NCBI GenBank assembly: GCA_963825135.1
Contig: CAWGRW010000009.1
Coordinates: forward strand, 321,008 to 385,007
Direction: 5' to 3'
Source of the DNA: an uncultured bacterium
Lineage (GTDB): Bacteria; Desulfobacterota_D; UBA1144; Nemesobacterales; UBA2774
Length of the DNA stretch: 64,000 nt
Positions 5,776-50,274 of this stretch are shown here, piece by piece; the stretch's first letter is position 1; each line of letters opens with the position of its first letter. The notes beneath the pieces are model-generated. The model saw only the letters and a list, made by a program, of their open reading frames with translations. It did no database searches and had not been told where the DNA came from. Made by a program: the position numbers and the translations under genes.

Positions 5776-6054
5776 CTACTTTAAGTAGGTCCTTATCAAC
5801 TCTAACAAGACTTTAGTCGCTTTCAGCTGCGCCGTTGTCGGAGCGGTATCGGGATCGAGCACGTGGAGGTTGATATGGCCCTCGAGAACCTCGGACATGA
5901 GACCGTTTATAGCGCCGCGGCACGCCGCAATATCCTGAAGGACCAGCGAACAATCCTTTTCATCTTCGAGAGCTTTCTCGATTCCCTCGATCTGCCCGCG
6001 GATTCTCCTCACACGGTTGATGAGCCTTTTTTTATCCGTAATTGTATGAGACAC
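5776..6054 (-). CDS. CsoR/RcnR/FrmR-family metal-sensing transcriptional repressor (DUF156)
   Basis: 92 aa; RLINRVRRIRGQIEGIEKALEDEKDCSLVLQDIAACRGAINGL... typical helix bundle with Cys/His metal ligands (C35, H/C in HINLH); directly upstream of and co-oriented with the CDF gene. Confidence 0.75.
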   Translation of the reverse strand: MSHTITDKKRLINRVRRIRGQIEGIEKALEDEKDCSLVLQDIAACRGAINGLMSEVLEGHINLHVLDPDTAPTTAQLKATKVLLELIRTYLK

Positions 6055-6086
6055 CGGCAGCGCTCCTGTATTACATTGGCCGCTGA

Positions 6087-6108
6087 ATACTATACAGGGG
6101 TATAGTAT
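6087..6108. promoter_or_regulatory. Candidate CsoR/RcnR-type operator: perfect 9-bp inverted repeat flanking a G-tract (ATACTATAC-AGGGG-GTATAGTAT)
   Basis: Seen in sequence 33-54 nt upstream of the csoR-like start codon (minus strand); resembles TACT-G(n)-AGTA / ATACCC..GGGTAT operators of this family. Confidence 0.45.
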
Positions 6109-6195
6109 TATTGCAAATTGCTGACTTGCGACAAACGGCGTTCCGACAATATTTCGGCTTTATGAAAGGTATTTCGATTCGCCGATGCGGTGATA

Positions 6196-6843
6196 TTACG
6201 CCCTCTCCACGACCAATATCGTCCTCGACTGCCCTCCGAAAGGCAGGGTGAAGTCGCTCCTCTCGGCGAGCCTGTATTCCTTACCCACCTCACTGAGGGC
6301 TGCCTCCCACTCTTCCCCTCCCCTCTGCCCCCTCATGAGAATTATTCCGCCCCCGGCGGCGAGATAAGGCTCGCTGAGACGGAGTATCCCGGGGATAGGC
6401 CCCACGGCCCTCGTGATAACACGCTGGAACCTACGCCTCTCTATGCCGTTCCCCTCGTCCTCCGCCCTGCCCCACACGGCCGTGATACCCCCGAGGCCGA
6501 GCGCGCGTATGACCTCCCGCATGAACACCACCTTCTTGTGTACGGAATCGAGGAGGGTGACCTCCAGCGACTCCGATATTATCTTTATCGGGATACCGGG
6601 GAACCCGGCGCCCGAGCCTATGTCGAGGAGGCGCGAGCCCTCGGGGACGAAGCGCGCGGCCGACAAGGAATCGAGGAAGTGGCCTGTCACTATGTCCCTG
6701 TCGCTCTTAAGCCCTGTGAGGTTTATCTTCTTGTTCCAGCTCTTGAGCTCCCGCAGGTAGAGCATGAAAAGGTCCCGCTCGGCGGAGGTGAGTTCCACAC
6801 CGACGAGGGACGCCCCCTCGCACAATAATTCCGCGGGCTTCAT
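6196..6843 (-). CDS. rsmG: 16S rRNA (guanine527-N7)-methyltransferase RsmG (GidB)
   Basis: 215 aa; SAM-binding motif LLDIGSGAGFPGIPIKI, conserved GidB N-terminal region (LYLRELKSWNKKINLTG). Confidence 0.85.
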   Translation of the reverse strand: MKPAELLCEGASLVGVELTSAERDLFMLYLRELKSWNKKINLTGLKSDRDIVTGHFLDSLSAARFVPEGSRLLDIGSGAGFPGIPIKIISESLEVTLLDSVHKKVVFMREVIRALGLGGITAVWGRAEDEGNGIERRRFQRVITRAVGPIPGILRLSEPYLAAGGGIILMRGQRGGEEWEAALSEVGKEYRLAERSDFTLPFGGQSRTILVVERA

Positions 6844-7610
6844 CCCGTCCTCCTTATGTGTATCGGGTGGTTCACGTGAACGCCCGGAGTGCCCTTATAC
6901 ATCTTGACCCTGCCCGTGACCTCGACCTCCTTCTCCATGTAGTAAGACGCGGGGTCTATTCCGAAGAAACGGAAATTGTCGAGGGCGTCGCGGAATATTA
7001 CCACGTCGAATTTTCCGTCTATCGAGAGGACTACCGCTTTCCCCGACTCCCTCGCGCCCGTTACCCTGCCCCTCACGACGACGCGCTTGCCTTCGTACAG
7101 GGAAGCCTTGTCTATGTCCACGACGAACGCGCCGTTCCCGGCGGGGACGACTATCGTGTCGAGGTCCCCCCACATCCCCCTTCTCTCCCGCCTGGCTTCT
7201 TCGGACGCTTTGTTAAAGGAATCTTTATATTTCCCGTTGGGCTCGATGAAGAGGGTCGTCGCGAGCCCTTGTCTGAGCAGCTCACGGCTCACGGAGACGC
7301 CGTCCGCGTAAACGTATGCGAGGAGCCTCCCGTAAACGTCGTATTTCTCGCTGTCGAATTCGAGCCTGACCGTCTTCCCCCCGACGAGCTTCCTGTTGAG
7401 CTCCCCGGCCTCGGCCGAGTAGGGGTCTCCGGGGGAATCCTGATGCGCGGCCTCGGGCGTGTCTATTCCCAGGTACCGGACGAGCGTCCCCTTGCCGTCG
7501 TCGATCACTATCGTGTCCCCGTCCAGGACCTCGGCGACCCGGTAGGACGCGTCCTCCGGTCTTCTTTCCGGTATGGGCGTTGTAAAAATAGAACGCGACG
7601 GCGAGCGCAA
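6840..7610 (-). CDS. Thermonuclease (SNase/micrococcal nuclease-like) family protein; N-terminus probably frameshifted from a TTG-initiated signal/TM segment at 7650
   Basis: 256 aa; SNase fold signature (VLDGDTIVIDDG...RYLGIDTPE...YGRLLAYVY...GLA...E...RGMWG); overlapping ORF 7282..7650 encodes a perfect signal/TM (MKPGKDPVVVLVFIALAVAFYFY) then Arg-rich wrong-frame sequence. Confidence 0.7.
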   Translation of the reverse strand: MRSPSRSIFTTPIPERRPEDASYRVAEVLDGDTIVIDDGKGTLVRYLGIDTPEAAHQDSPGDPYSAEAGELNRKLVGGKTVRLEFDSEKYDVYGRLLAYVYADGVSVSRELLRQGLATTLFIEPNGKYKDSFNKASEEARRERRGMWGDLDTIVVPAGNGAFVVDIDKASLYEGKRVVVRGRVTGARESGKAVVLSIDGKFDVVIFRDALDNFRFFGIDPASYYMEKEVEVTGRVKMYKGTPGVHVNHPIHIRRTG

Positions 7611-7680
7611 TAAAAACGAGCACGACGACTGGGTCTTTTCCGGGTTTCAAATTGATTTTCTCGTTTTTCGGATTTTAATT

Positions 7681-7764
7681 CCCTCCTTAGAAAAAGGAGG
7701 GTTAGGGAGGATTTGTCTTTTTCTTTATTTTAAATCCCCCTTAATCCCCCTTTTCCAAAGGGGG
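7681..7764. terminator. Intergenic region with two GC hairpins (ccctccttagaaaaaggaggg; cccccttttccaaaggggg) flanked by T/A runs; probable terminator(s) between trmI and the thermonuclease gene
   Basis: Perfect 8-bp and 5-bp stems seen in sequence; T-rich on plus strand, A/T-rich on minus strand; orientation ambiguous. Confidence 0.3.
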
Positions 7765-7803
7765 AAATACCGTATGCCACTCATTATTATCTCGTCCAAT
7801 AAT

Positions 7804-8595
7804 TTAAAGCCCCGGATCGCGCTTCTTCAAAGCCTTTCGGCCGAACGTAAGGAAGCCGGTGTGGCTCACCATGCGGTCCATGGGCCTCGTCTTGCCTGTG
7901 CTCACGCGGATATTCCTGACGAGCACCTCGATCGTCTCCAGGAAGACGAACCCCTCTTCGGCCAGCACCTCGACGCAGCGCTCCACCTGGTTGTACGTGG
8001 GCGACAGGCTGGCTATCCTGCCCCCGCCCCTGAGCGCGCGAGCGCCTGAAGCTATGCCGTCCCACGGCGACGGAAGGTCGAGCATGACCACATCGACCCC
8101 TTCCTCGTCGAAACCCTCCTGCGCTTCCCGCAGTTTGAATTCCACGAACTCGCCGAACCCCGCGCTCTCAACGTTCTTCCTCGCGTTCTCCATGAACTTC
8201 TCGCTCCTGTCGTACGCGTACACCCTCCCCGAGGGCGCCACGGCGTTGGCGAGAGCTATTGTGAGAGAGCCCGAACCCGAACCGCACTCGATCACCCTCA
8301 TGCCCGGGCCGAGCCCCGTCTTAAGCACTATCATCGCGGCGTCCTTCGGATAGATGATCTGCGTGTGCCTCTTCACCTTCATCATCCTGTCCTCGATAGT
8401 GGGCTCGAGCAGAACGTATGTGTGGAGGAGATTCGTCTGTATGGTGCTCCCGTATTCGAGCCCTATCGCTTTCCCGAGCTCTATATCGCCCAGATGAGTC
8501 CCCATCCGCTTCCCTTCGGCCACTGTAACGAGGTAGGTTTTTTCATCGGGGGACATTACGAGTACGGCGTCTCCGCTCTTTATGACCATTACCAC
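7804..8595 (-). CDS. trmI: tRNA (adenine57/58-N1)-methyltransferase TrmI (Gcd14 family)
   Basis: 263 aa; SAM motif GMRVIECGSGSGSLTIALA, Gcd14-type N-terminal beta domain and C-terminal region. Confidence 0.8.
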   Translation of the reverse strand: MVMVIKSGDAVLVMSPDEKTYLVTVAEGKRMGTHLGDIELGKAIGLEYGSTIQTNLLHTYVLLEPTIEDRMMKVKRHTQIIYPKDAAMIVLKTGLGPGMRVIECGSGSGSLTIALANAVAPSGRVYAYDRSEKFMENARKNVESAGFGEFVEFKLREAQEGFDEEGVDVVMLDLPSPWDGIASGARALRGGGRIASLSPTYNQVERCVEVLAEEGFVFLETIEVLVRNIRVSTGKTRPMDRMVSHTGFLTFGRKALKKRDPGL

Positions 8596-9781: not shown

Positions 9782-9913
9782 GTCGGCGTCTTGAAAACGC
9801 GGCTTAAACCGCTTAGATTTGATATGTAAATATTAAAGGATCGAGGGATGATATCATACACTCTGTCTTTGACAATGTATAATGTCGTGATATAGTTTAG
9901 CGCTTCAAAAATC

Positions 9914-9987
9914 GAGCCGTTAGCTCAGCTTGGTAGAGCAACTGACTTTTAATCAGTGGGTCACAGGTTCGAATCCTGTACGGCTCA
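9914..9987 (+). tRNA. tRNA-Lys (anticodon TTT)
   Basis: 74-nt cloverleaf folded by hand: acceptor GAGCCGT/ACGGCTC, D-arm GCTC..GAGC, anticodon arm ACTGA-CTTTTAA-TCAGT, T-arm ACAGG-TTCGAAT-CCTGT; CCA not encoded. Confidence 0.9.
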
Positions 9988-9998
9988 TACTCGTTTAC

Positions 9999-10073
9999 GT
10001 CCCCGTCGTCTAGCTCGGCCCAGGACATCGGCCTTTCACGCCGGTAACAGGGGTTCAAATCCCCTCGGGGACG
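9999..10073 (+). tRNA. tRNA-Glu (anticodon TTC)
   Basis: Near-identical to canonical bacterial tRNA-Glu (GTCCCCGTCGTCTAGC..GGCCTTTCACGCCGG..GGGGTTCAAATCCCCTCGGGGACG); acceptor GTCCCCG/CGGGGAC; 11 nt after tRNA-Lys. Confidence 0.9.
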
Positions 10074-10300
10074 CATCGCTTTCCCGAAGTACAGTAACAG
10101 AGTTGCCACTATCCAACAGCGACCGACTGCTCACTTGCTCGCAGTCGTTGGGGACGCATTTATTTCCCGGAGTACAGCAAAAATTCTGCCTTTGTTCAAA
10201 GGCGTCCAATTCCTCGCTCGCTCGGAATTGTTGGGGACGCATATATTTCCCGGAGTAAATTTACTTCACTGCACTTTTTCAAGGGCGTCCGGTCCCTGAG
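10074..10300 (+). repeat. Tandem array (2 full units + 1 truncated, ~84 nt each) abutting tRNA-Glu; each unit ends with a copy of the tRNA 3-prime end TTGGGGACGCA and carries a 7-bp hairpin with conserved 10-nt loop
   Basis: GGGGACGCA recurs at 10066-10074 (tRNA), 10150-10158, 10233-10241; hairpins cgactgc-tcacttgctc-gcagtcg (10124-10147) and caattcc-tcgctcgctc-ggaattg (10207-10230); same family as array at 47324-48233. Confidence 0.8.
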
Positions 10301-10364
10301 TTTTTATTAATTCCTTCCCCCTTGAGGGGGGAAGGGTAGGATGGAGGTGATAAACCCTCCACTT

Positions 10365-10919
10365 TCACCTCACGAGCTTCGAGATCTGCTTGAACTCGTC
10401 CGTCCCCGCGCGCTCGAGCAGCTGGAACAGGAACGCCTCCGTAGTGCCGATGACGGCCCCCGCTTTATCCATGAGCTCCATCCCCTTCTCCCAGTCAAGC
10501 TCCCTTCTCGATACGACCGCGTCCGCGGGCACATAGACGTGATACCCCTCGTTCACGAGGTCGATAGCCGTCTGGAGGACACACACGTGGGTCTCGACGC
10601 CGCAGAGAAGCACGGAGCTTCTGTTAAGACCCTTCAGCTCGTCCATGAACTCGGGCGACCTCGCGCAGCTGAATACGAGCTTCTCTACGGGACGGAACCC
10701 CTCCCCCGCGGATTCCCTTATATCGCCTATCGTGGGCCCGAGTCCCTTCGGGTACTGCTCCGTCACATGCACGGGTATATCCAGTATCTTCGCCGCTTCG
10801 AGTAGGATCTTCACGTTCTTCACCGCGAGCCCGCTCTCCGTCCCGGGCATTGCCGACATCAGCTTCTCCTGCATGTCCACTACGACGATAGACGTGTCTT
10901 CTTTCTTTAGAAAGTCCAT
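10365..10919 (-). CDS. Isochorismatase-family cysteine hydrolase
   Basis: 184 aa; VVVDMQ..., catalytic Cys in CGVETHVCVLQTAIDL, conserved D/K. Confidence 0.75.
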   Translation of the reverse strand: MDFLKKEDTSIVVVDMQEKLMSAMPGTESGLAVKNVKILLEAAKILDIPVHVTEQYPKGLGPTIGDIRESAGEGFRPVEKLVFSCARSPEFMDELKGLNRSSVLLCGVETHVCVLQTAIDLVNEGYHVYVPADAVVSRRELDWEKGMELMDKAGAVIGTTEAFLFQLLERAGTDEFKQISKLVR

Positions 10920-11177: not shown

Positions 11178-12813
11178 TCACTCGCCCACATTAAACGGCG
11201 CCGGCTCGAGCACGGCGACGCAGGAGGTGTCCGGCGCGCCCGGATCGGACAGGAAGGAAGCGAACACTTCCTGTGCGCAGCTGTTCGACTGGATCACGGC
11301 GTGTCCGACCCCGGGGAAGGCCAGCACTATGGAGTTCGTGAGCGGCAAGGCCCCTTTCTGACCCGTGCTCGGCGGTGTCACGGTGTCGAAGGTGCCCGAT
11401 AAGACCAGGGTCGGGATATCGCTCCCGGTGGCGGTGCGAAGGGCCTTGGGCGTCTTGGGGATATCCCAGATTCTGCAGTCGTCAAGCGCGTAGGTGAAGT
11501 GCAGGGCAGGCGCGAGCACCGAGTCCGGATAGTCCGGAAAGGCCAGCCGCCCCCGGTTGAGCACGCTGGCTTTATTGTCTTCGGCCACATATCCGCTGCA
11601 AAGCATACCGAAGGTCATGCCATAGGCGAGTACGTTGGGAGGGGCAAACGCGGGTACGGCGCGTGTCCTGGCTATGTTCTCCGGCTGTCCGTTGTCGAGC
11701 TCGTCGATCCACGCGGGCACATTCGGGAAGCTCTGAGTATTGAAGGTGTTGTCTATTATCCCGTTCACGATAGCTCCGCCGTCGAGCACGACGTCCACCG
11801 GCGGATCACCCGGTGAGACCTGCACGCTCGCAGTGACCGGATCCGCCTCGAGCTCGTTTACGAGGCGGGTGAGCGTCCCGGCAAGATCGGGATATCCGGC
11901 GGCGCACGCGGGCTGTGCCTCGCATGCGGCAAAAAAGTTGTCGAAGCCCTCTCTGGCGTTGCGCGAAGCCGTGGAGGCCATCGTCGGCGTCATCGAGCGG
12001 CTCTACGGAATCGAGCGTCACTGTGCGGATGCCTTCAGGATGCTGATACATGAGCGTCTGCGCGAGGTAGGTGCCGTACGAGACCCCGAGCACGTTCCAT
12101 TCAGCGATACCGAGCGCCTTTCTCAGGTCGGCGAAATCGGCGGCGTTTTCGACCGTGTTGTATGCGCTTATATCTATCCCGCTCCCGGACAGGCGGAGAA
12201 AGCATGCCCGTGACGCGGCGATGTGCGCATCCCGGTTGTCCTGAGAGTCCAACGGGAAGTTGAGACTTTCTATATAGAATTCATCCAGCTCCTGGCACAT
12301 CAGCTCGGGGTCGGCGAACACCGTCCCGCGCTGGCTCATGAGGATGAGATCGCGGTCCTGGTTCACGCCGGCTGCCGTGAGAGACTCAAGTTCAATGAGC
12401 GAGCTGCCGCCGGGACCGCCGGCCAGGTGCACGACAGGGTCTGGAAGAGGCGGCTGATTCACCGAGGGCACGATAATGACTGCAAGGCGGATGGTGCGTA
12501 CGCCTGACTCGGCGCGGTTCTCGGCCGCGAGCGGCTCGGTGCGCTTCTCGGGCACGAACAGATAGCCGCACCGCGACACAGCGAGATCTTGCGGCGTTGG
12601 CAGCCCCTTCTCTGAAAACGGGGCCACCTCCGAGCACGGCGCACCCACGAACCTCGGCAGATTCTCGTTGTTATTGTTGTCGTTGCAGCTTGCCGCGCCG
12701 GCGAGCAGGAGTGTAGTGATAATCACGGCAGCCGGCTTTATCCTGAACTCCGTTACATTACGTCTGTGCAAAGTCTTCTCCTCACTTGTTTGTTCTATCC
12801 GCACACATATCAC
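11178..12813 (-). CDS. Secreted S33-family alpha/beta-hydrolase peptidase (tripeptidyl aminopeptidase-like), apparently split by a frameshift near 11990-12030
   Basis: ORFs 11806..12813 (lipoprotein-like signal LLLAGAASC, nucleophile elbow GVSYGTYLA) and 11178..11993 (C-terminal half with conserved Cys pair) are collinear; each ORF tail/head is wrong-frame junk; likely start TTG at 12771. Confidence 0.65.
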
Positions 12814-47042: not shown

Positions 47043-47249
47043 TGTATGGCACCCACTATAGAGTTAGATAATCCGGATGTCACAATCGCGCGCTCCCGAC
47101 AGGTGAACACTTAAAAGGTATTCTGATATAATATGTCAAGAAAATATAAAAAATCCAAGTCTTTATGTTTTTTTACGAATAAAACTATTGATGGACGGTA
47201 CAAAGTCTGTTATAGATATAAGCGTTTACGTTAACCCTGAAACATTCAC

Positions 47250-47323
47250 GTCCCCGTAGCTCAGAAGGATAGAGCGCAGGATTCCTAATCCTGAGGCCGG
47301 AGGTTCGAATCCTCTCGGGGACG
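47250..47323 (+). tRNA. tRNA-Arg (anticodon CCT)
   Basis: 74-nt cloverleaf: acceptor GTCCCCG/CGGGGAC, D-arm GCTC..GAGC, anticodon arm CAGGA-TTCCTAA-TCCTG, T-arm GGAGG-TTCGAAT-CCTCT; CCA not encoded. Confidence 0.9.
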
Positions 47324-48233
47324 CAACCATACAGATCTTCAATCGGTTCTTGCGCCGGAAGCTGGACGCATATCAGTCGGAGAATAGACATTGTTGCAAT
47401 TAACCTATGGCGTCCGATTCCTCCTATTCGTCGAAATCGTTCTCTCGGGGACGCAAAACTTTCCCTAAGCATAGTGGCTCTATTGCATTCTTCCAAAGGC
47501 GTCCGGTTCTTGCGCATCGCTCAGAAACCGTTCTCTCGGGGACGCAATAACTCAGTCCGGAGAATCAGTAACATTGTTGCAATTAACCTATGGCGTCCGA
47601 TTCCTCCTATTCGTCGAAATCGTTCTCTCGGGGACGCATAACTCAGTCCGGAGAAAGAAGTGAATAACATGGCGTCCGATTTCCTATCTCTGTACCATTC
47701 AGTCCGGTTAACATGGCAAAGTCGACTAGTCGAAACGTCCGGGACGCATAACTCAGTCCGGAGAATAGAACATTGTTGCAATTAACCTATGGCGTCCGAT
47801 TCCTCCATTCGTCGAAATCGTTCTCGGGGACGCATAACTCAGTCGGAATAGAACAGCTGGATCTATTCGTCGAAATCGGGGACGCATAACAGTCCGGAGA
47901 ATAGTAACATTGTTGCAATTAACCTATGGCGTCCGATTCCTCCTATTCGTCGAAATCGTTCTCTCGGGGACGCATAACTCAGTCCGAAGAATAGTAACAT
48001 TGTTGCAATCAACCTAAGGCGTCCAATTGCTCACTTGTTCGCAATTGTTTCTCGGGGACGCAGCAATTTACCAAAGTACAGTGACCATGTTGCATTCTTT
48101 CAAAGGCGTCCAATTTAGTTTGGTTTCAGTAGATCATCCCGAGAACATTGGCATTGTTGCAATTAGCATAGGGCGACCGGTTTCTCACTTGCTCGAAACC
48201 GTTACTTGTTCGCAATTGTTTCTCGGGGACGCA
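47324..48233 (+). repeat. ~910-nt tandem array of ~10 units (52-171 nt, modal 85-92) directly abutting tRNA-Arg; every unit ends in (C)TCGGGGACGCA (copy of the tRNA 3-prime end) and contains a tRNA-3-prime-half-like remnant with a 7-bp hairpin
   Basis: GGGGACGCA at 47317, 47447, 47538, 47630, (47741), 47826, 47878, 47966, 48054, 48225; unit consensus TAACTCAGTCCGGAGAATAGTAACATTGTTGCAATTAACCTATGGCGTCCGATTCCTCCTATTCGTCGAAATCGTTCTCTCGGGGACGCA. Confidence 0.85.
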
Positions 48234-48494
48234 CACACAATGTATGCTCATAGAGGTTTCCTATGAAACTCTTCCTATTTCCCAGGTAGCCTAGGAGCGG
48301 CTTCCAGCCGCAACCTTTTTTCGAAGTGCTGAGTCAGGGTTGCCAATTGACAATGTCCTCCAATTGTTCATTATCCCGGAATCGTTAATGCACATTATAT
48401 AAGATGGGGGACGCGGCCGGCAGGATGCACCGATATTTTCAATTTCTTAAAAAATTAGTCTGTCATAATCAAAAAATATCATTATAATTCGGGG

Positions 48495-50274
48495 ATGATG
48501 AAATCCGTTCTACCCATTCTGTTGATACTTCTGTTTGCACTTTCCTGCGACTCCTCAGGTCCCGGAAACTCGGCGAACGTTTTCGGAGACAATGTGCCCG
48601 ATCCGGATGCAGTCGCCGAGGGCCCTGTCGAGAGCGACGTAGTCCTGGACATCGTACTCGGGCTCGCGCGCTCTCAGGATAGTCTCGCCGAGAGAGTCGA
48701 TGAGCTCCACGATCCGGGCTCCCCTCATTATCACGATTTCAGGAGCGTTCCGGAGATCGCCGAGGAGTTCGGGGCCGACGATTCGGCAATAAAGACAGTG
48801 CAGGAATACCTGGACGGGCTTGGCATTTCCTTGACCGCCGATGCCACAAAGGGATTTCTTCACGGCCGGGCGACGGCTGCGCAGCTGGATCAGCTTTTCG
48901 ACACGGAGCTTTTTTATTACAAGATAGACGAAGGCACTTTTATTGCGCCCTCGATAGCGCCTTCGCTCCCCGCGGCGCTTAACGGACTTGTGACGGAGGT
49001 TCTGGGTTTAAGCACCGAGCCTTCTCTCTGGGAAATCTCCCCATCCGACAGATTCCGAGACCGCTCTCGGCCCATCCGTTGCAATCGACACGCCGGGCTC
49101 CCCGACAGTCACGGGGACCCGCGAGGGGTGCGCCGACGCCCTCAAGCAAAAAGGCTTCACCCCGAACCAGTTTCGAACGGCTTACGGGATCGATGACCTT
49201 CACGAGCTCGGTTTCGAAGGGCAGGGCATCACAATGGCCCTCGTCGAGGGAACCAGTTTCGAGCAATCGAATATCGATAAGTTCACATCCTGTTTCGGAA
49301 TTTCCAATCCCGTCGTTCCGACGGTCGTCCAGCTGGGAAGCGACGAGCTCAAACCCGACGGAGAACCGTTTCTCGATATTGAAACAGCTCTAATGATCGC
49401 CCCCAAGCTCTCGGGGCTTTACGTTTTTCAAGAGAAACTCAATTCCCTGGCCGACTGGATCACGCTCTTCTCCGCGCCGCTCAACACCAAGCACACGGCG
49501 GGGGTTCCCGTGCAGATAATGTCGGGGAGTCTCGGAAACTGCGAGGTCAAATGGGGGTTTGCGGCAATTAGTACGCTGGAATTCGTATTCATGAACGCGG
49601 CAGCTTCAGGGGTGCACGTGTTTATCTCCGCGGGAGACAGCGGCTCGTCCACATGTTTCCACCACGATAAAAAGACCAAGACCAAGTCCGCCGAGTATCC
49701 CGCGTCGTCGCAATACGTCACAGGCGTCGGCGGGACTAACCTTGCGCTCAATGAGGACAACACGATCAAGGGAGAGGGCGTATGGAACGACCAGGATTTC
49801 CCCGCTCCCTACAACAAAAAGTTTGGAGCCGGCGGCGGCGGCAAAAGCATGTTCCTCTCGAGACCTCTCTGGCAGAAGGGAACGAAAATAAAGGGCTTCA
49901 GGAGGACGACGCCCGACGTGGCATTCTTCGCCGATCCTTTTCCGGGCTACGTCATAAACGACTCGCTGAAAGGCTGGTTCGATAACGGGGGCACGAGCGC
50001 CGCGACGCCGTTTTTCGCCGCGTCCATGGCCCTCGTGCTCCAGGCCGCGAAGGAAAACGACGTAACCCTCGACCTCACTTACGAGCTAATCTACAAGCTC
50101 GCGAACAGCGACGCCTACGACGGGGTTTTTCAGGACGTGGTCATAGGGAATAACGACCTCTTCGACGTCGGCTGCTGCACTGCGGGACCGCGTTACGATA
50201 TGGCAAGCGGGTGGGGATCGCTCAACATCAATTCCCTGGCCGAAGTCTTGATCCCGGGGTTGGGGAACCGATAG
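48495..50274 (+). CDS. S53-family (sedolisin/kumamolisin-like) serine peptidase with pro-domain, split by apparent frameshift near 49030-49060
   Basis: ORF 48495..49196: signal/lipobox + pro-kumamolisin activation domain; ORF 49234..50274: catalytic domain with SGDSGSS and GGTSAATPFFAA (Ser nucleophile); frame of ORF2 stays open upstream to ~49020. Confidence 0.75.

What the first reader, a model, noticed from the sequence alone, without database searches (positions are those of the whole stretch)
9999..10300. Second, shorter copy of the same repeat family behind tRNA-Glu, which shares the identical acceptor stem with tRNA-Arg
Seen: tRNA-Glu(TTC) and tRNA-Arg(CCT), 37 kb apart, have identical acceptor stems (GTCCCCG / CGGGGACG). 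Both are followed by the same unit architecture: ~45-nt leader with TTTCCCGGAGTACAG / CAGTCCGGAGAATAG, then AAAGGCGTCC, a 7-bp hairpin, GTT(TCTC)GGGGACGCA. Here there are two full units (10076-10158, 10159-10241) and a truncated third, which ends in a GC hairpin (10313-10335). Whatever generates the units therefore recognises the shared 3-prime acceptor sequence rather than one particular tRNA. A tRNA-Lys sits immediately upstream and is not involved.
Basis: partly seen in the sequence, partly recalled or inferred. Interest (0 to 1): 0.7.

Follow-up and report, generated by a model that had tools for sequence, protein, structure and literature searches.

The report
tRNA-linked repeat arrays behind two tRNAs
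Two tRNA genes in an uncultured sulfate-reducer-type bacterium are each followed by a run of about 85-base repeats that all end in a copy of the tRNA's own tail; this is the same kind of "tRNA-linked repeat" known since 1978 in E. coli, whose function is still unknown, now seen as a new, unrelated family in a distant phylum.

Summary
tRNA-Glu(TTC) (9999-10075) and tRNA-Arg(CCT) (47250-47325) share the acceptor stem and the 3' tail CGGGGACGCA. Both are followed, on the same strand, by one repeat family: 2 full units plus a partial one after Glu, and about 10 units (47326-48233) after Arg. GGGGACGCA occurs 12 times in the window against 0.56 expected, only at these two loci.

The same family follows the same two tRNAs in at least 11 related contigs (Thermodesulfobacteriota/"delta proteobacterium" MAGs and unnamed metagenome contigs), with 1 to 4 units.

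Each unit has a semi-conserved leader, GGCG(T/A)CC, a 7-bp hairpin with clear compensatory changes, GTT, and usually 14 nt identical to the local tRNA's 3' end.

By position and 3'-end identity this is a tRNA-linked repeat (TLR), a class described in E. coli (tyrT 178-bp repeats, rtT RNA, RrA/B/F). There is no sequence homology to those.

Most likely the units are co-transcribed trailer modules that carry the tRNA's 3' processing signal. They probably multiply and homogenise by unequal crossing-over and gene conversion. I found no dedicated "generator": no mobile-element gene in the 64 kb and no copies on viral contigs. The function of the RNA remains unknown.

I classify it as a new member of a known kind, of moderate interest.

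The parts
9869..9896 (+). sigma-70-type promoter of the tRNA-Lys/tRNA-Glu operon (TTGACA-16-TGnTATAGT)
   Evidence: 11 of 12 consensus matches, with an extended -10 TG. The same sequence is conserved in relative L005.
9914..9987 (+). tRNA-Lys(TTT). It is the first gene of the operon, has a different 3' end, and carries no repeats of its own.
9999..10075 (+). tRNA-Glu(TTC) including the trailing GCA. Its 3' end is ...ATCCCCTCGGGGACGCA.
10076..10158 (+). Glu unit G1 (83 nt). Hairpin CGACTGC-TCACTTGCTC-GCAGTCG at 10124-10147. Ends GTTGGGGACGCA.
   Evidence: (77.3 bits)
10159..10241 (+). Glu unit G2 (83 nt). Hairpin CAATTCC-TCGCTCGCTC-GGAATTG at 10207-10230. The same hairpin occurs in the Arg arrays of L026 and L030.
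   Evidence: (77.9 bits)
10242..10297 (+). Terminal partial unit G3: leader plus GGGCGTCC plus the start of a hairpin. It is orthologous to the terminal partial unit of L022/L044.
   Evidence: 28.9 bits
10313..10335 (.). GC-rich hairpin between the array and the convergent isochorismatase gene (10365-10919, minus strand). It has no canonical T-tract on either strand and is a possible two-way transcription stop.
   Evidence: A similar hairpin sits in L013.
47250..47325 (+). tRNA-Arg(CCT) including the trailing GCA. Its 3' end is ...ATCCTCTCGGGGACGCA.
47326..48062 (+). Arg array, units R1-R9, with unit ends at 47370, 47455, 47546, 47638, 47748, 47834, 47886, 47974 and 48062. R2, R3, R4, R6, R8 and R9 are full units of 85-92 nt. 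R1 (45 nt), R5 (110 nt) and R7 (52 nt) are damaged.
   Evidence: 75-97 bits for the full units
48063..48233 (+). Composite unit R10 (171 nt): a unit with a second unit-like module (48130-48214) sitting inside its hairpin loop. The same composite is present in L001, L022/L044 and L026.
48234..48246 (.). Palindrome CACACA-A-TGTATG directly after the last unit. It is conserved at array ends in relatives.
   Evidence: unique in the window
48291..48325 (+). REP-like GC hairpin plus T-run, the likely terminator of the tRNA-Arg transcription unit.
48313..48414 (+). Degenerate relic of a further composite unit that ends in GGGGACGC (48407-48414). Also present in L002 and L039.
   Evidence: (15.8 bits, weak)

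Best explanation
These are tRNA-linked repeats (TLRs): non-coding modules of about 83-92 nt in the 3' trailer of a tRNA operon, each ending in a copy of the upstream tRNA's 3' end.

**Shown.**
- The arrays lie on the tRNA strand, between the tRNA and the next hairpin or terminator, downstream of a strong promoter.
- Every unit ends in 9-14 nt identical to the local tRNA's T-stem/acceptor 3' strand plus GCA.
- Each unit holds a 7-bp hairpin kept intact by compensatory changes.
- The family follows the same two tRNAs across many related genomes, with variable copy number and shuffled modules.

**Inferred.**
1. The whole array is co-transcribed with the tRNA.
2. The repeated tRNA tail, together with the hairpin and a unit-internal complementary strand (leader UUCCCGA, or GCGUCC), acts as a repeated 3'/5' processing signal. 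The transcript would then be cut at each unit border by the enzymes that mature the tRNA (RNase Z/P or RNase E-type; CCA is not encoded in the three tRNA genes of the window), releasing about 85-nt structured RNAs.
3. Arrays grow, shrink and homogenise by unequal crossing-over and gene conversion seeded on the shared 14-nt end and the conserved blocks. Because tRNA-Glu and tRNA-Arg have the same acceptor end, one family can live at both loci and exchange units.

What the released RNAs do is unknown, as it is for most E. coli TLRs.
For: - **Anatomy and statistics:**
- **Hairpin covariation:** 5 of 6 pairs change on both sides, in 25 cells. None of 500 shuffles reaches this, and the slid controls collapse.
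- **Leader/3'-end helix:** 92.7% of cells are paired, and its variation is mostly wobble-compatible on the + strand (16 C->U or A->G cells, against 11 unpaired cells). A stray unit in L022 with a different 3' end (CTCGCAATGACAGCA) has a matching different leader (TGTCG...GCGA).
- **Transcription signals:** promoters upstream of both operons and a terminator after the Arg array.
- **Distribution:** the same family sits behind the same tRNAs, co-oriented, in L001, L002, L005, L008, L013, L020, L022/L044, L026, L030, L032, L039, L042 and L043.
- **Unit ends follow the local tRNA:** 14-nt suffix, CCCT against CTCT against CTGC.
- **Module shuffling and Glu/Arg sharing:**
- **Copy number:** 10 against 2 units at 97% flank identity.
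- **Non-coding:** unit lengths are 83, 85-89, 91 and 92 nt.
- **No mobile-element link:** no such genes in the window and no viral copies.
- **Known class with the same defining features:** it has been shown to be transcribed and processed in E. coli (PMC8144298). The E. coli tyrT/tyrV units read directly show the 19-nt tRNA tail and an internal complement, GGGGAAGGAT.
Against: - There are no expression data, so co-transcription and processing are inferred.
- Only the hairpin has covariation support. The two candidate helices that involve the 3' end are nearly invariant and mutually exclusive.
- Single-unit folds are not more stable than shuffles (z from +0.7 to -1.3).
- The commonest imperfect hairpin, CGATTCC/GAAATCG, has a C.A mismatch on the + strand that would be a G.U pair on the minus strand. 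It occurs with 8 different loops on 6 contigs. Strand evidence is therefore mixed.
- The Glu array has no canonical terminator.
- There is no match to any Rfam family, including tRNA and rtT.
- Copy numbers in short-read MAGs may be collapsed, and the window itself may carry indel errors.
Confidence: 0.6

Rival explanations
1. The arrays are selectively neutral DNA repeats, a by-product of replication slippage and unequal crossing-over at a short repeat next to highly transcribed tRNA genes, with no role for the RNA. On this view the apparent compensatory changes in the hairpin come from quasi-palindrome template-switch correction at the DNA level.
For: - Copy number is very unstable between close relatives.
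- Many units are damaged: R1, R5 and R7.
- Modules are shuffled.
- Folds are no more stable than shuffles.
- Hairpin mismatches give no clear strand signal.
- The region downstream of both tRNAs is a dump of other small repeats in relatives.
- E. coli TLRs still have no proven function in tRNA operons.
Against: - The family persists behind both tRNAs in lineages whose flanks no longer align (L008, L032, L043).
- Conserved blocks (CCCGRAG, TTGC, GGCGWCC, GTT) stay fixed while hairpin arms and spacers vary.
- Hairpin pairing is kept in 94.7% of cells across about 12 different arm sequences.
- The stray unit has a co-varied leader and 3' end.
Confidence: 0.25
2. The units are footprints or copies of a small site-specific mobile element: att-site scars of tRNA-targeting integrative elements, or a MITE-like or hairpin-dependent element that inserts after ...GGGGACGCA.
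For: - tRNA 3' ends are classic integration sites, and each unit duplicates the tRNA end.
- The region downstream of both tRNAs varies from 290 nt to about 2.1 kb among relatives.
- L039 shows real integration footprints at this tRNA-Arg.
- Composite units look like a unit inserted into the hairpin loop of another.
- A stray copy exists away from a tRNA.
- A conserved palindrome caps the arrays.
Against: - No integrase, transposase or HUH gene appears among about 40 ORFs of the window.
- No copies were found on viral contigs.
- In the window, units occur only at the two tRNAs.
- The real integration scars in L039 duplicate 23-47 nt of tRNA, including the T loop and anticodon arm, with foreign AT-rich DNA between them. 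That is unlike the units.
- Unit ends track the local T-stem sequence, which a single transposing sequence would not do.
- The composites share one ancestral insert (ATTTTGG...) rather than arising from independent insertions.
Confidence: 0.1
3. The units are decayed tRNA pseudogenes left by tandem duplication of the tRNA gene plus its spacer.
For: - Unit length is about that of a tRNA plus a spacer.
- The leader TTTCCCG(A/T)AG.ACAG resembles the tRNA-Arg 5' end GTCCCCGTAGCTCAG.
- The minimum-free-energy folds of two of the three type A units tested close with a 7-bp acceptor-like helix, next to the hairpin.
Against: - ARAGORN and the Rfam tRNA model find nothing in the arrays, even at E up to 10.
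- Outside the shared 14 nt, unit-to-tRNA alignment scores are no better than shuffles (z about 0 to 1, one case 2.8).
- The hairpin has 7 bp and a 10-nt loop, not a T arm.
Confidence: 0.05

Closest known systems
tRNA-linked repeats (TLRs) of Escherichia coli K-12: the tyrT/tyrV 178-bp repeats with rtT (RttR) RNA, and RrA/RrB/RrF behind 5S rRNA (Egan & Landy 1978; Rudd 1999; PMC8144298)
   Same: - They sit directly downstream of a stable-RNA gene in the same operon and orientation.
- Each repeat ends in a copy of the 3' end of that gene.
- There are one to several copies per locus, and they are non-coding.
- Each unit contains an internal stretch complementary to the copied tail. In E. coli this is GGGGAAGGAT against ATCCTTCCCC. 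Here it is UUCCCGA or GCGUCC against the GGGGACGC tail.
- Function is unknown.
   Different: - There is no sequence similarity (no Rfam rtT hit).
- Units are half as long: 83-92 against about 178 nt.
- The shared tail is shorter: 9-14 against 18-19 nt.
- Arrays are longer, up to about 10 units.
- One family serves two different tRNA species.
- A covarying hairpin and nested composite units are documented here.
- The host is an uncultured Thermodesulfobacteriota lineage, not an enterobacterium.
3' external transcribed spacers of tRNA operons acting as small RNAs (for example 3'ETS-leuZ of E. coli, mentioned in PMC8144298)
   Same: It is trailer RNA made from a tRNA transcript and released by tRNA processing.
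   Different: 3'ETS-leuZ is a single copy, has no copied tRNA tail, and has a known sponge function. Nothing comparable is shown here.
att-site duplications left by integrative elements at tRNA 3' ends
   Same: They are direct repeats of the tRNA 3' end downstream of the gene, and the locus is variable between strains.
   Different: Real scars at this very tRNA (L039) copy 23-47 nt and enclose foreign DNA. The units copy only 9-14 nt, are 85-nt tandem modules of one conserved family, and have no recombinase nearby.
REP/BIME and other small hairpin repeats (MITE-like)
   Same: They are short intergenic modules with a hairpin whose arms vary but stay complementary. Some are nested or composite.
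   Different: REPs are scattered genome-wide in both orientations. These units are tandem, in one orientation, and tied to two tRNAs. A separate REP-like element does occur beside the array (48291-48311).

Membership tests
tRNA-linked repeats (TLR class, defined in E. coli) | Located immediately downstream of a tRNA (or rRNA) gene, in the same operon and orientation | tested here: met
   Both arrays start at the base after the tRNA's GCA, on the + strand, between a promoter and a hairpin or terminator. The same holds in 12 related loci. Operon membership itself is inferred, not measured.
tRNA-linked repeats (TLR class, defined in E. coli) | The 3' end of each repeat is identical to the 3' end of the upstream stable-RNA gene (18-19 bp in E. 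coli) | tested here: met
   The identical suffix is 14 nt in most units, 9 nt in the window's Glu array and 20 nt in the separate L027 family. It is shorter than in E. coli but the same feature. The E. coli tail was checked directly.
tRNA-linked repeats (TLR class, defined in E. coli) | One to a few tandem copies per locus | tested here: met
   There are 2.7 units after Glu and about 10 after Arg in the window, and 1-4 in relatives.
tRNA-linked repeats (TLR class, defined in E. coli) | Transcribed with the stable RNA and processed to discrete RNAs (shown for rtT and RrA/B/F) | not testable with these tools
   No transcript data are available. Only promoter and terminator positions bear on this.
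Rfam rtT RNA / E. coli TLR sequence family (homology) | Match to the family covariance model or sequence | tested here: not met
   There is no Rfam match in the arrays at gathering score or at E up to 10. This is an analogous family, not a homologue.
tRNA genes / tRNA pseudogenes | Cloverleaf detectable by tRNA models; sequence similarity to a tRNA beyond the tail | tested here: not met
   ARAGORN and Rfam find only the 3 true tRNAs. Alignment of unit bodies to tRNA-Arg and tRNA-Glu is no better than shuffles.
CRISPR array | Constant repeats alternating with unique spacers | tested here: not met
   The 'spacer' part (the leader) is itself repeated and conserved between units and genomes. No cas gene is in the window.
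Integrative-element att scars / small mobile element | Associated recombinase or transposase; copies at other targets; foreign DNA between repeats | tested here: not met
   No such genes are in the 64 kb. Window copies occur only at the two tRNAs. None is on viral contigs. One stray copy in L022 keeps this open at a low level.

The most novel reading that the evidence does not exclude
The units are tRNA-mimicking small RNAs: an acceptor-like helix, a T-arm-like hairpin and the tRNA's own 3' determinant. The tRNA-processing machinery would cut them out of tRNA operon transcripts. Together with the E. coli TLRs and the independent L027 family, they would form a widespread, functionally selected class of 'tRNA-operon satellite RNAs'. 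Possible roles include titrating or tuning RNase P/Z, the CCA-adding enzyme or acceptor-end-targeting toxins, with copy number tuned by array expansion.
Probability: 0.15. Interest if true: 0.75.

Novelty: new member of a known kind. Interest (0 to 1): 0.45.

Why it matters
TLRs have been an unexplained feature of E. coli stable-RNA operons for over 45 years, and in the searchable literature they appear only for E. coli and other Enterobacterales.

This is an unrelated family with the same design in a distant, uncultured lineage, and a third family turns up in a peat metagenome (L027). That suggests the design is convergent and therefore probably useful, not an enterobacterial accident.

This family also offers something the E. 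coli repeats lack: many diverged copies across genomes. These already reveal a conserved hairpin and fixed sequence blocks, which give concrete handles for testing processing and function.

Tried and rejected
- **Rfam.** The whole window at gathering score and the Arg array at E up to 10 gave only the three tRNAs.
- **Exact-protein lookup.** I tried this to recover the source contig and found nothing on record.
- **Structure beyond the hairpin.** An all-against-all column scan and RNAalifold found covariation only in the hairpin. The GCGUCC/GGACGC helix and the leader/acceptor-like helix are both well paired but nearly invariant and mutually exclusive, so neither is proven.
- **Strand assignment from wobble pairs.** The result was contradictory. 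U.G pairs favour the + strand in the outer helices, while the C.A hairpin variant favours the minus strand.
- **Thermodynamic stability.** Single-unit folds are not significantly more stable than shuffles.
- **tRNA-pseudogene origin.** I found no significant similarity.
- **Coding.** Unit lengths are not multiples of three, and the ORFs across the arrays are spurious.
- **CRISPR, integron attC and IS200/IS605-type readings.** I considered these from the anatomy and dropped them. The units have a single hairpin each and conserved 'spacers', and there are no cas, integrase or TnpA genes.
- **Viral link.** The pattern scan of viral contigs gave 13 chance hits, none matching the model.
- **Unrelated pattern hits.** Many hits in the genome and metagenome scans were unrelated: CRISPR-like arrays, coding repeats and REP-like elements in high-GC genomes.
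- **Literature.** I found no report of TLR-type repeats outside Enterobacterales.

Full report
**1.

ARAGORN and Rfam both find three tRNAs in the window: tRNA-Lys(TTT) 9914-9987, tRNA-Glu(TTC) 9999-10074 and tRNA-Arg(CCT) 47250-47324. Glu and Arg both begin GTCCCCG and end CGGGGACGCA.

Splitting the DNA after each GGACGCA gives two 83-nt units (10076-10158, 10159-10241) and a partial third after tRNA-Glu. After tRNA-Arg it gives ten units between 47326 and 48233. Tandem Repeats Finder and the repeat finder see the Arg array independently, with a period of about 90.

GGGGACGCA occurs 12 times in the 64 kb, always on the + strand and only at these two loci. Shuffles give 0.56.

**2. Unit anatomy**

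An alignment of 22 different full units from the window and relatives (A1) shows the following order:
- 3-6 A/T-rich bases;
- a leader, either TTTCCCGRAG.ACAG... ('type A') or CAGTCCGRAGAATAG... ('type B');
- an invariant TTGC;
- a variable spacer of about 12 nt;
- GGCG(T/A)CC;
- a 7-bp hairpin with a loop of about 10 nt (TC...TC);
- an invariant GTT;
- the tail C(Y)CTCGGGGACGCA.

| Candidate structure | Pairing | Covariation |
|---|---|---|
| 7-bp hairpin | 94.7% of cells | 5 of 6 pairs change on both sides, 25 cells; 0 of 500 shuffles reach this; slid controls collapse |
| GCGUCC with GGACGC | 96% of cells | none (nearly invariant) |
| Leader UUCCCGA with UCGGGGA ('acceptor-like') | 92.7% of cells | none; changes are mostly C->U or A->G, which keep wobble pairs on the + strand (16 cells; 11 cells unpaired) |

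About a dozen different arm sequences occur in the hairpin. The two outer helices involve the tRNA-derived tail and cannot both form.

One stray unit in relative L022 (6295-6383) gives independent support for the leader/tail helix. It lies away from any tRNA and ends in CTCGCAATGACAGCA, and its leader is TGTCGGTTAGCGAAG, which pairs with that different tail.

Several points weaken the structural case:
- Single units do not fold more stably than shuffles.
- Strand evidence from mismatches is mixed. The frequent CGATTCC/GAAATCG hairpin has a C.A mismatch on the + strand that would be G.U on the other strand.
- The arrays match no Rfam family, tRNA and rtT included, even at E up to 10.
- Unit bodies are no more similar to the tRNAs than shuffled sequence.
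- Unit lengths (83-92 nt, not multiples of three) rule out coding.

**3. Context**

A near-consensus promoter (9869-9896) precedes tRNA-Lys/tRNA-Glu. One search lists a promoter-like site at 47104-47132. A sequence block just upstream of tRNA-Arg is conserved in relatives. The Arg array is followed by a hairpin plus T-run at 48297-48325. The arrays therefore lie inside the likely tRNA transcription units.

Pfam scans of about 40 ORFs across the window show ordinary chromosomal genes and no integrase, transposase, reverse transcriptase, HUH enzyme or cas gene.

**4. Relatives**

Pattern scans of genome and metagenome collections returned many unrelated hits. They also returned 13 true loci in which the same family follows tRNA-Glu(TTC) or tRNA-Arg(CCT), always co-oriented with it:
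- behind tRNA-Glu: L005, L013, L022/L044, L042;
- behind tRNA-Arg: L001, L002, L008, L020, L026, L030, L032, L039, L043.

The named genomes are Thermodesulfobacteriota or 'delta proteobacterium' MAGs.

| Loci | Flank identity to the window |
|---|---|
| L002 | 97% upstream, 91% downstream |
| L026 | 91% |
| L001, L005, L022, L042 | about 88% |
| L013 | 82% |
| L008, L032, L043 | not alignable |

Four findings follow.
- **Copy number is labile.** The window has about 10 Arg units and L002 has 2. The distance from tRNA-Glu to the next gene ranges from 290 nt in the window to about 2.1 kb in L022.
- **Modules are shuffled, and units pass between the two loci.** The hairpin of Glu unit G2 is identical to one in the Arg arrays of L026 and L030. 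L032 has a Glu-type tail in an Arg array.
- **The tail follows the local tRNA into its T stem.** It reads CCCTCGGGGACGCA behind Glu and CTCTCGGGGACGCA behind Arg. In L043 it reads CTGCCGGGGACGCA, where the tRNA T stem reads CTGC.
- **Composite units are shared.** The 167-183-nt composites carry a second module inside the hairpin loop and share one ancestral insert (ATTTTGG...). They occur at both tRNAs.

No unit was found on viral contigs.

**5. What it is**

The literature search led to the class of tRNA-linked repeats (TLRs) of E. coli. There are 22 repeats at ten loci, one to five per locus, downstream of tRNA or 5S genes. Each ends in 18-19 bp identical to the 3' end of the upstream gene. 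They were first seen as the tyrT 178-bp repeats (Egan & Landy 1978) and catalogued by Rudd (1999).

Their function is unknown. For the 5S-linked members, the RNAs are transcribed, processed and bind Hfq and CsrA, and the authors propose that the copied tail is a processing signal (PMC8144298).

I read the E. coli tyrT/tyrV locus directly. Its units end in AATCCTTCCCCCACCACCA and contain GGGGAAGGAT, the complement of that tail. This is the same logic as here.

The arrays in the window meet the positional and 3'-identity criteria of the class. They are not homologous to the E. coli sequences. Further searches found TLRs discussed only for E. coli and other Enterobacterales.

**6. Mechanism**

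*Best supported (confidence 0.6).* The units are co-transcribed trailer modules that repeat the tRNA's 3' processing determinant. The three tRNA genes of the window lack encoded CCA, which points to endonucleolytic 3' maturation. The arrays are maintained and resized by unequal crossing-over and gene conversion seeded on the shared tail and conserved blocks. The shared acceptor end of tRNA-Glu and tRNA-Arg lets one family occupy both loci.
- Shown: position, tail identity, hairpin covariation, persistence, copy-number change and module exchange.
- Inferred: transcription, cleavage at unit borders, and any role of the released RNAs.

*Rivals.*
- Neutral slippage products, with palindrome correction mimicking covariation (0.25).
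- Scars or copies of a site-specific mobile element (0.1). Contig L039 shows what real integration scars at this tRNA-Arg look like: 23- and 47-nt tRNA fragments around AT-rich foreign DNA. The units look different.
- Decayed tRNA pseudogenes (0.05).

**7. Verdict**

The link to the shared 3' end is reasonable. The idea of a generator that recognises that particular sequence is not supported; the pattern fits a known, more general rule.

This is a new, non-homologous member of the TLR kind in an uncultured lineage. Its comparative signal (a covarying hairpin and fixed blocks) could help crack an old puzzle. Interest is moderate.

Two caveats apply. The split hydrolase and sedolisin genes suggest indel errors in the assembly, so the odd units R5-R7 may be partly artefacts. 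Copy numbers in short-read MAGs may be collapsed.

Noticed in passing
L027 56-302 (minus strand) and L021 1-200: A different tRNA-Glu(TTC), from a peat metagenome, is followed by 2-3 tandem 86-nt units. They end in the last 20 nt of that tRNA (CAAATCCCGCTGGGGACGCA) and contain GCGGGATTT complementary to it. This is an independent TLR-like family with a different unit.
   Followed up: partly
L039 3500-3930 (minus strand): Upstream of the unit array lie only partial 3' fragments of tRNA-Arg (23 nt and 47 nt), separated by about 340 nt of AT-rich DNA. This looks like the footprint of integrative elements at this tRNA. The contig ends before a full tRNA or an integrase could be seen.
   Followed up: partly
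window 48234-48246; also L001 986-998, L002, L005, L008, L026, L042, and L022 about 6390-6410: A 13-bp palindrome, CACACA-N-TGTGTG, sits directly after the last unit of most arrays, and next to the stray unit in L022. It is unique in the window. Its role is unknown; it could be a protein-binding site, a boundary of an older insertion, or the ancestral trailer.
   Followed up: partly
window 48291-48325; L022 about 6000-6060: A REP-like element, (G/C)TAGGAGCGGCTTCCAGCCGC, forms the terminator-like hairpin after the Arg array here. In relatives, other small repeat families (GTCATCGCGAG..., CCGTTCATCCTGAGCTTGTCGAAGGATGAAC) crowd the regions downstream of the tRNAs.
   Followed up: no
window 11178-12813 and 48495-50274: Two genes are split into overlapping or adjacent frames: an alpha/beta hydrolase (Abhydrolase_1 plus TAP-like C-terminus) and a sedolisin (pro-kumamolisin activation domain plus S8/S53 peptidase). 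These are either pseudogenes or indel errors of a long-read assembly. If they are errors, the irregular units R5-R7 are also suspect.
   Followed up: no
L022 6295-6383 (+) and 6090-6114 (-): Unit-like copies lie away from any tRNA, in an intergenic region full of other repeats. One full unit has a tail (CTCGCAATGACAGCA) and leader that have changed together. There is also one isolated hairpin on the opposite strand.
   Followed up: partly
window 7804-8595 (minus strand): A GCD14/TrmI-type tRNA (m1A58) methyltransferase gene lies about 1.3 kb from the tRNA-Lys/Glu operon. This is probably coincidental.
   Followed up: no
L009 (Actinomycetota MAG), minus strand, reverse-complement coordinates 6104-7918 (about 83-1896 on the + strand): A regular array of 25 copies with a 71-74-nt period was picked up by chance because it contains GGACGCA. 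It looks like a CRISPR array and is unrelated to the finding.
   Followed up: no
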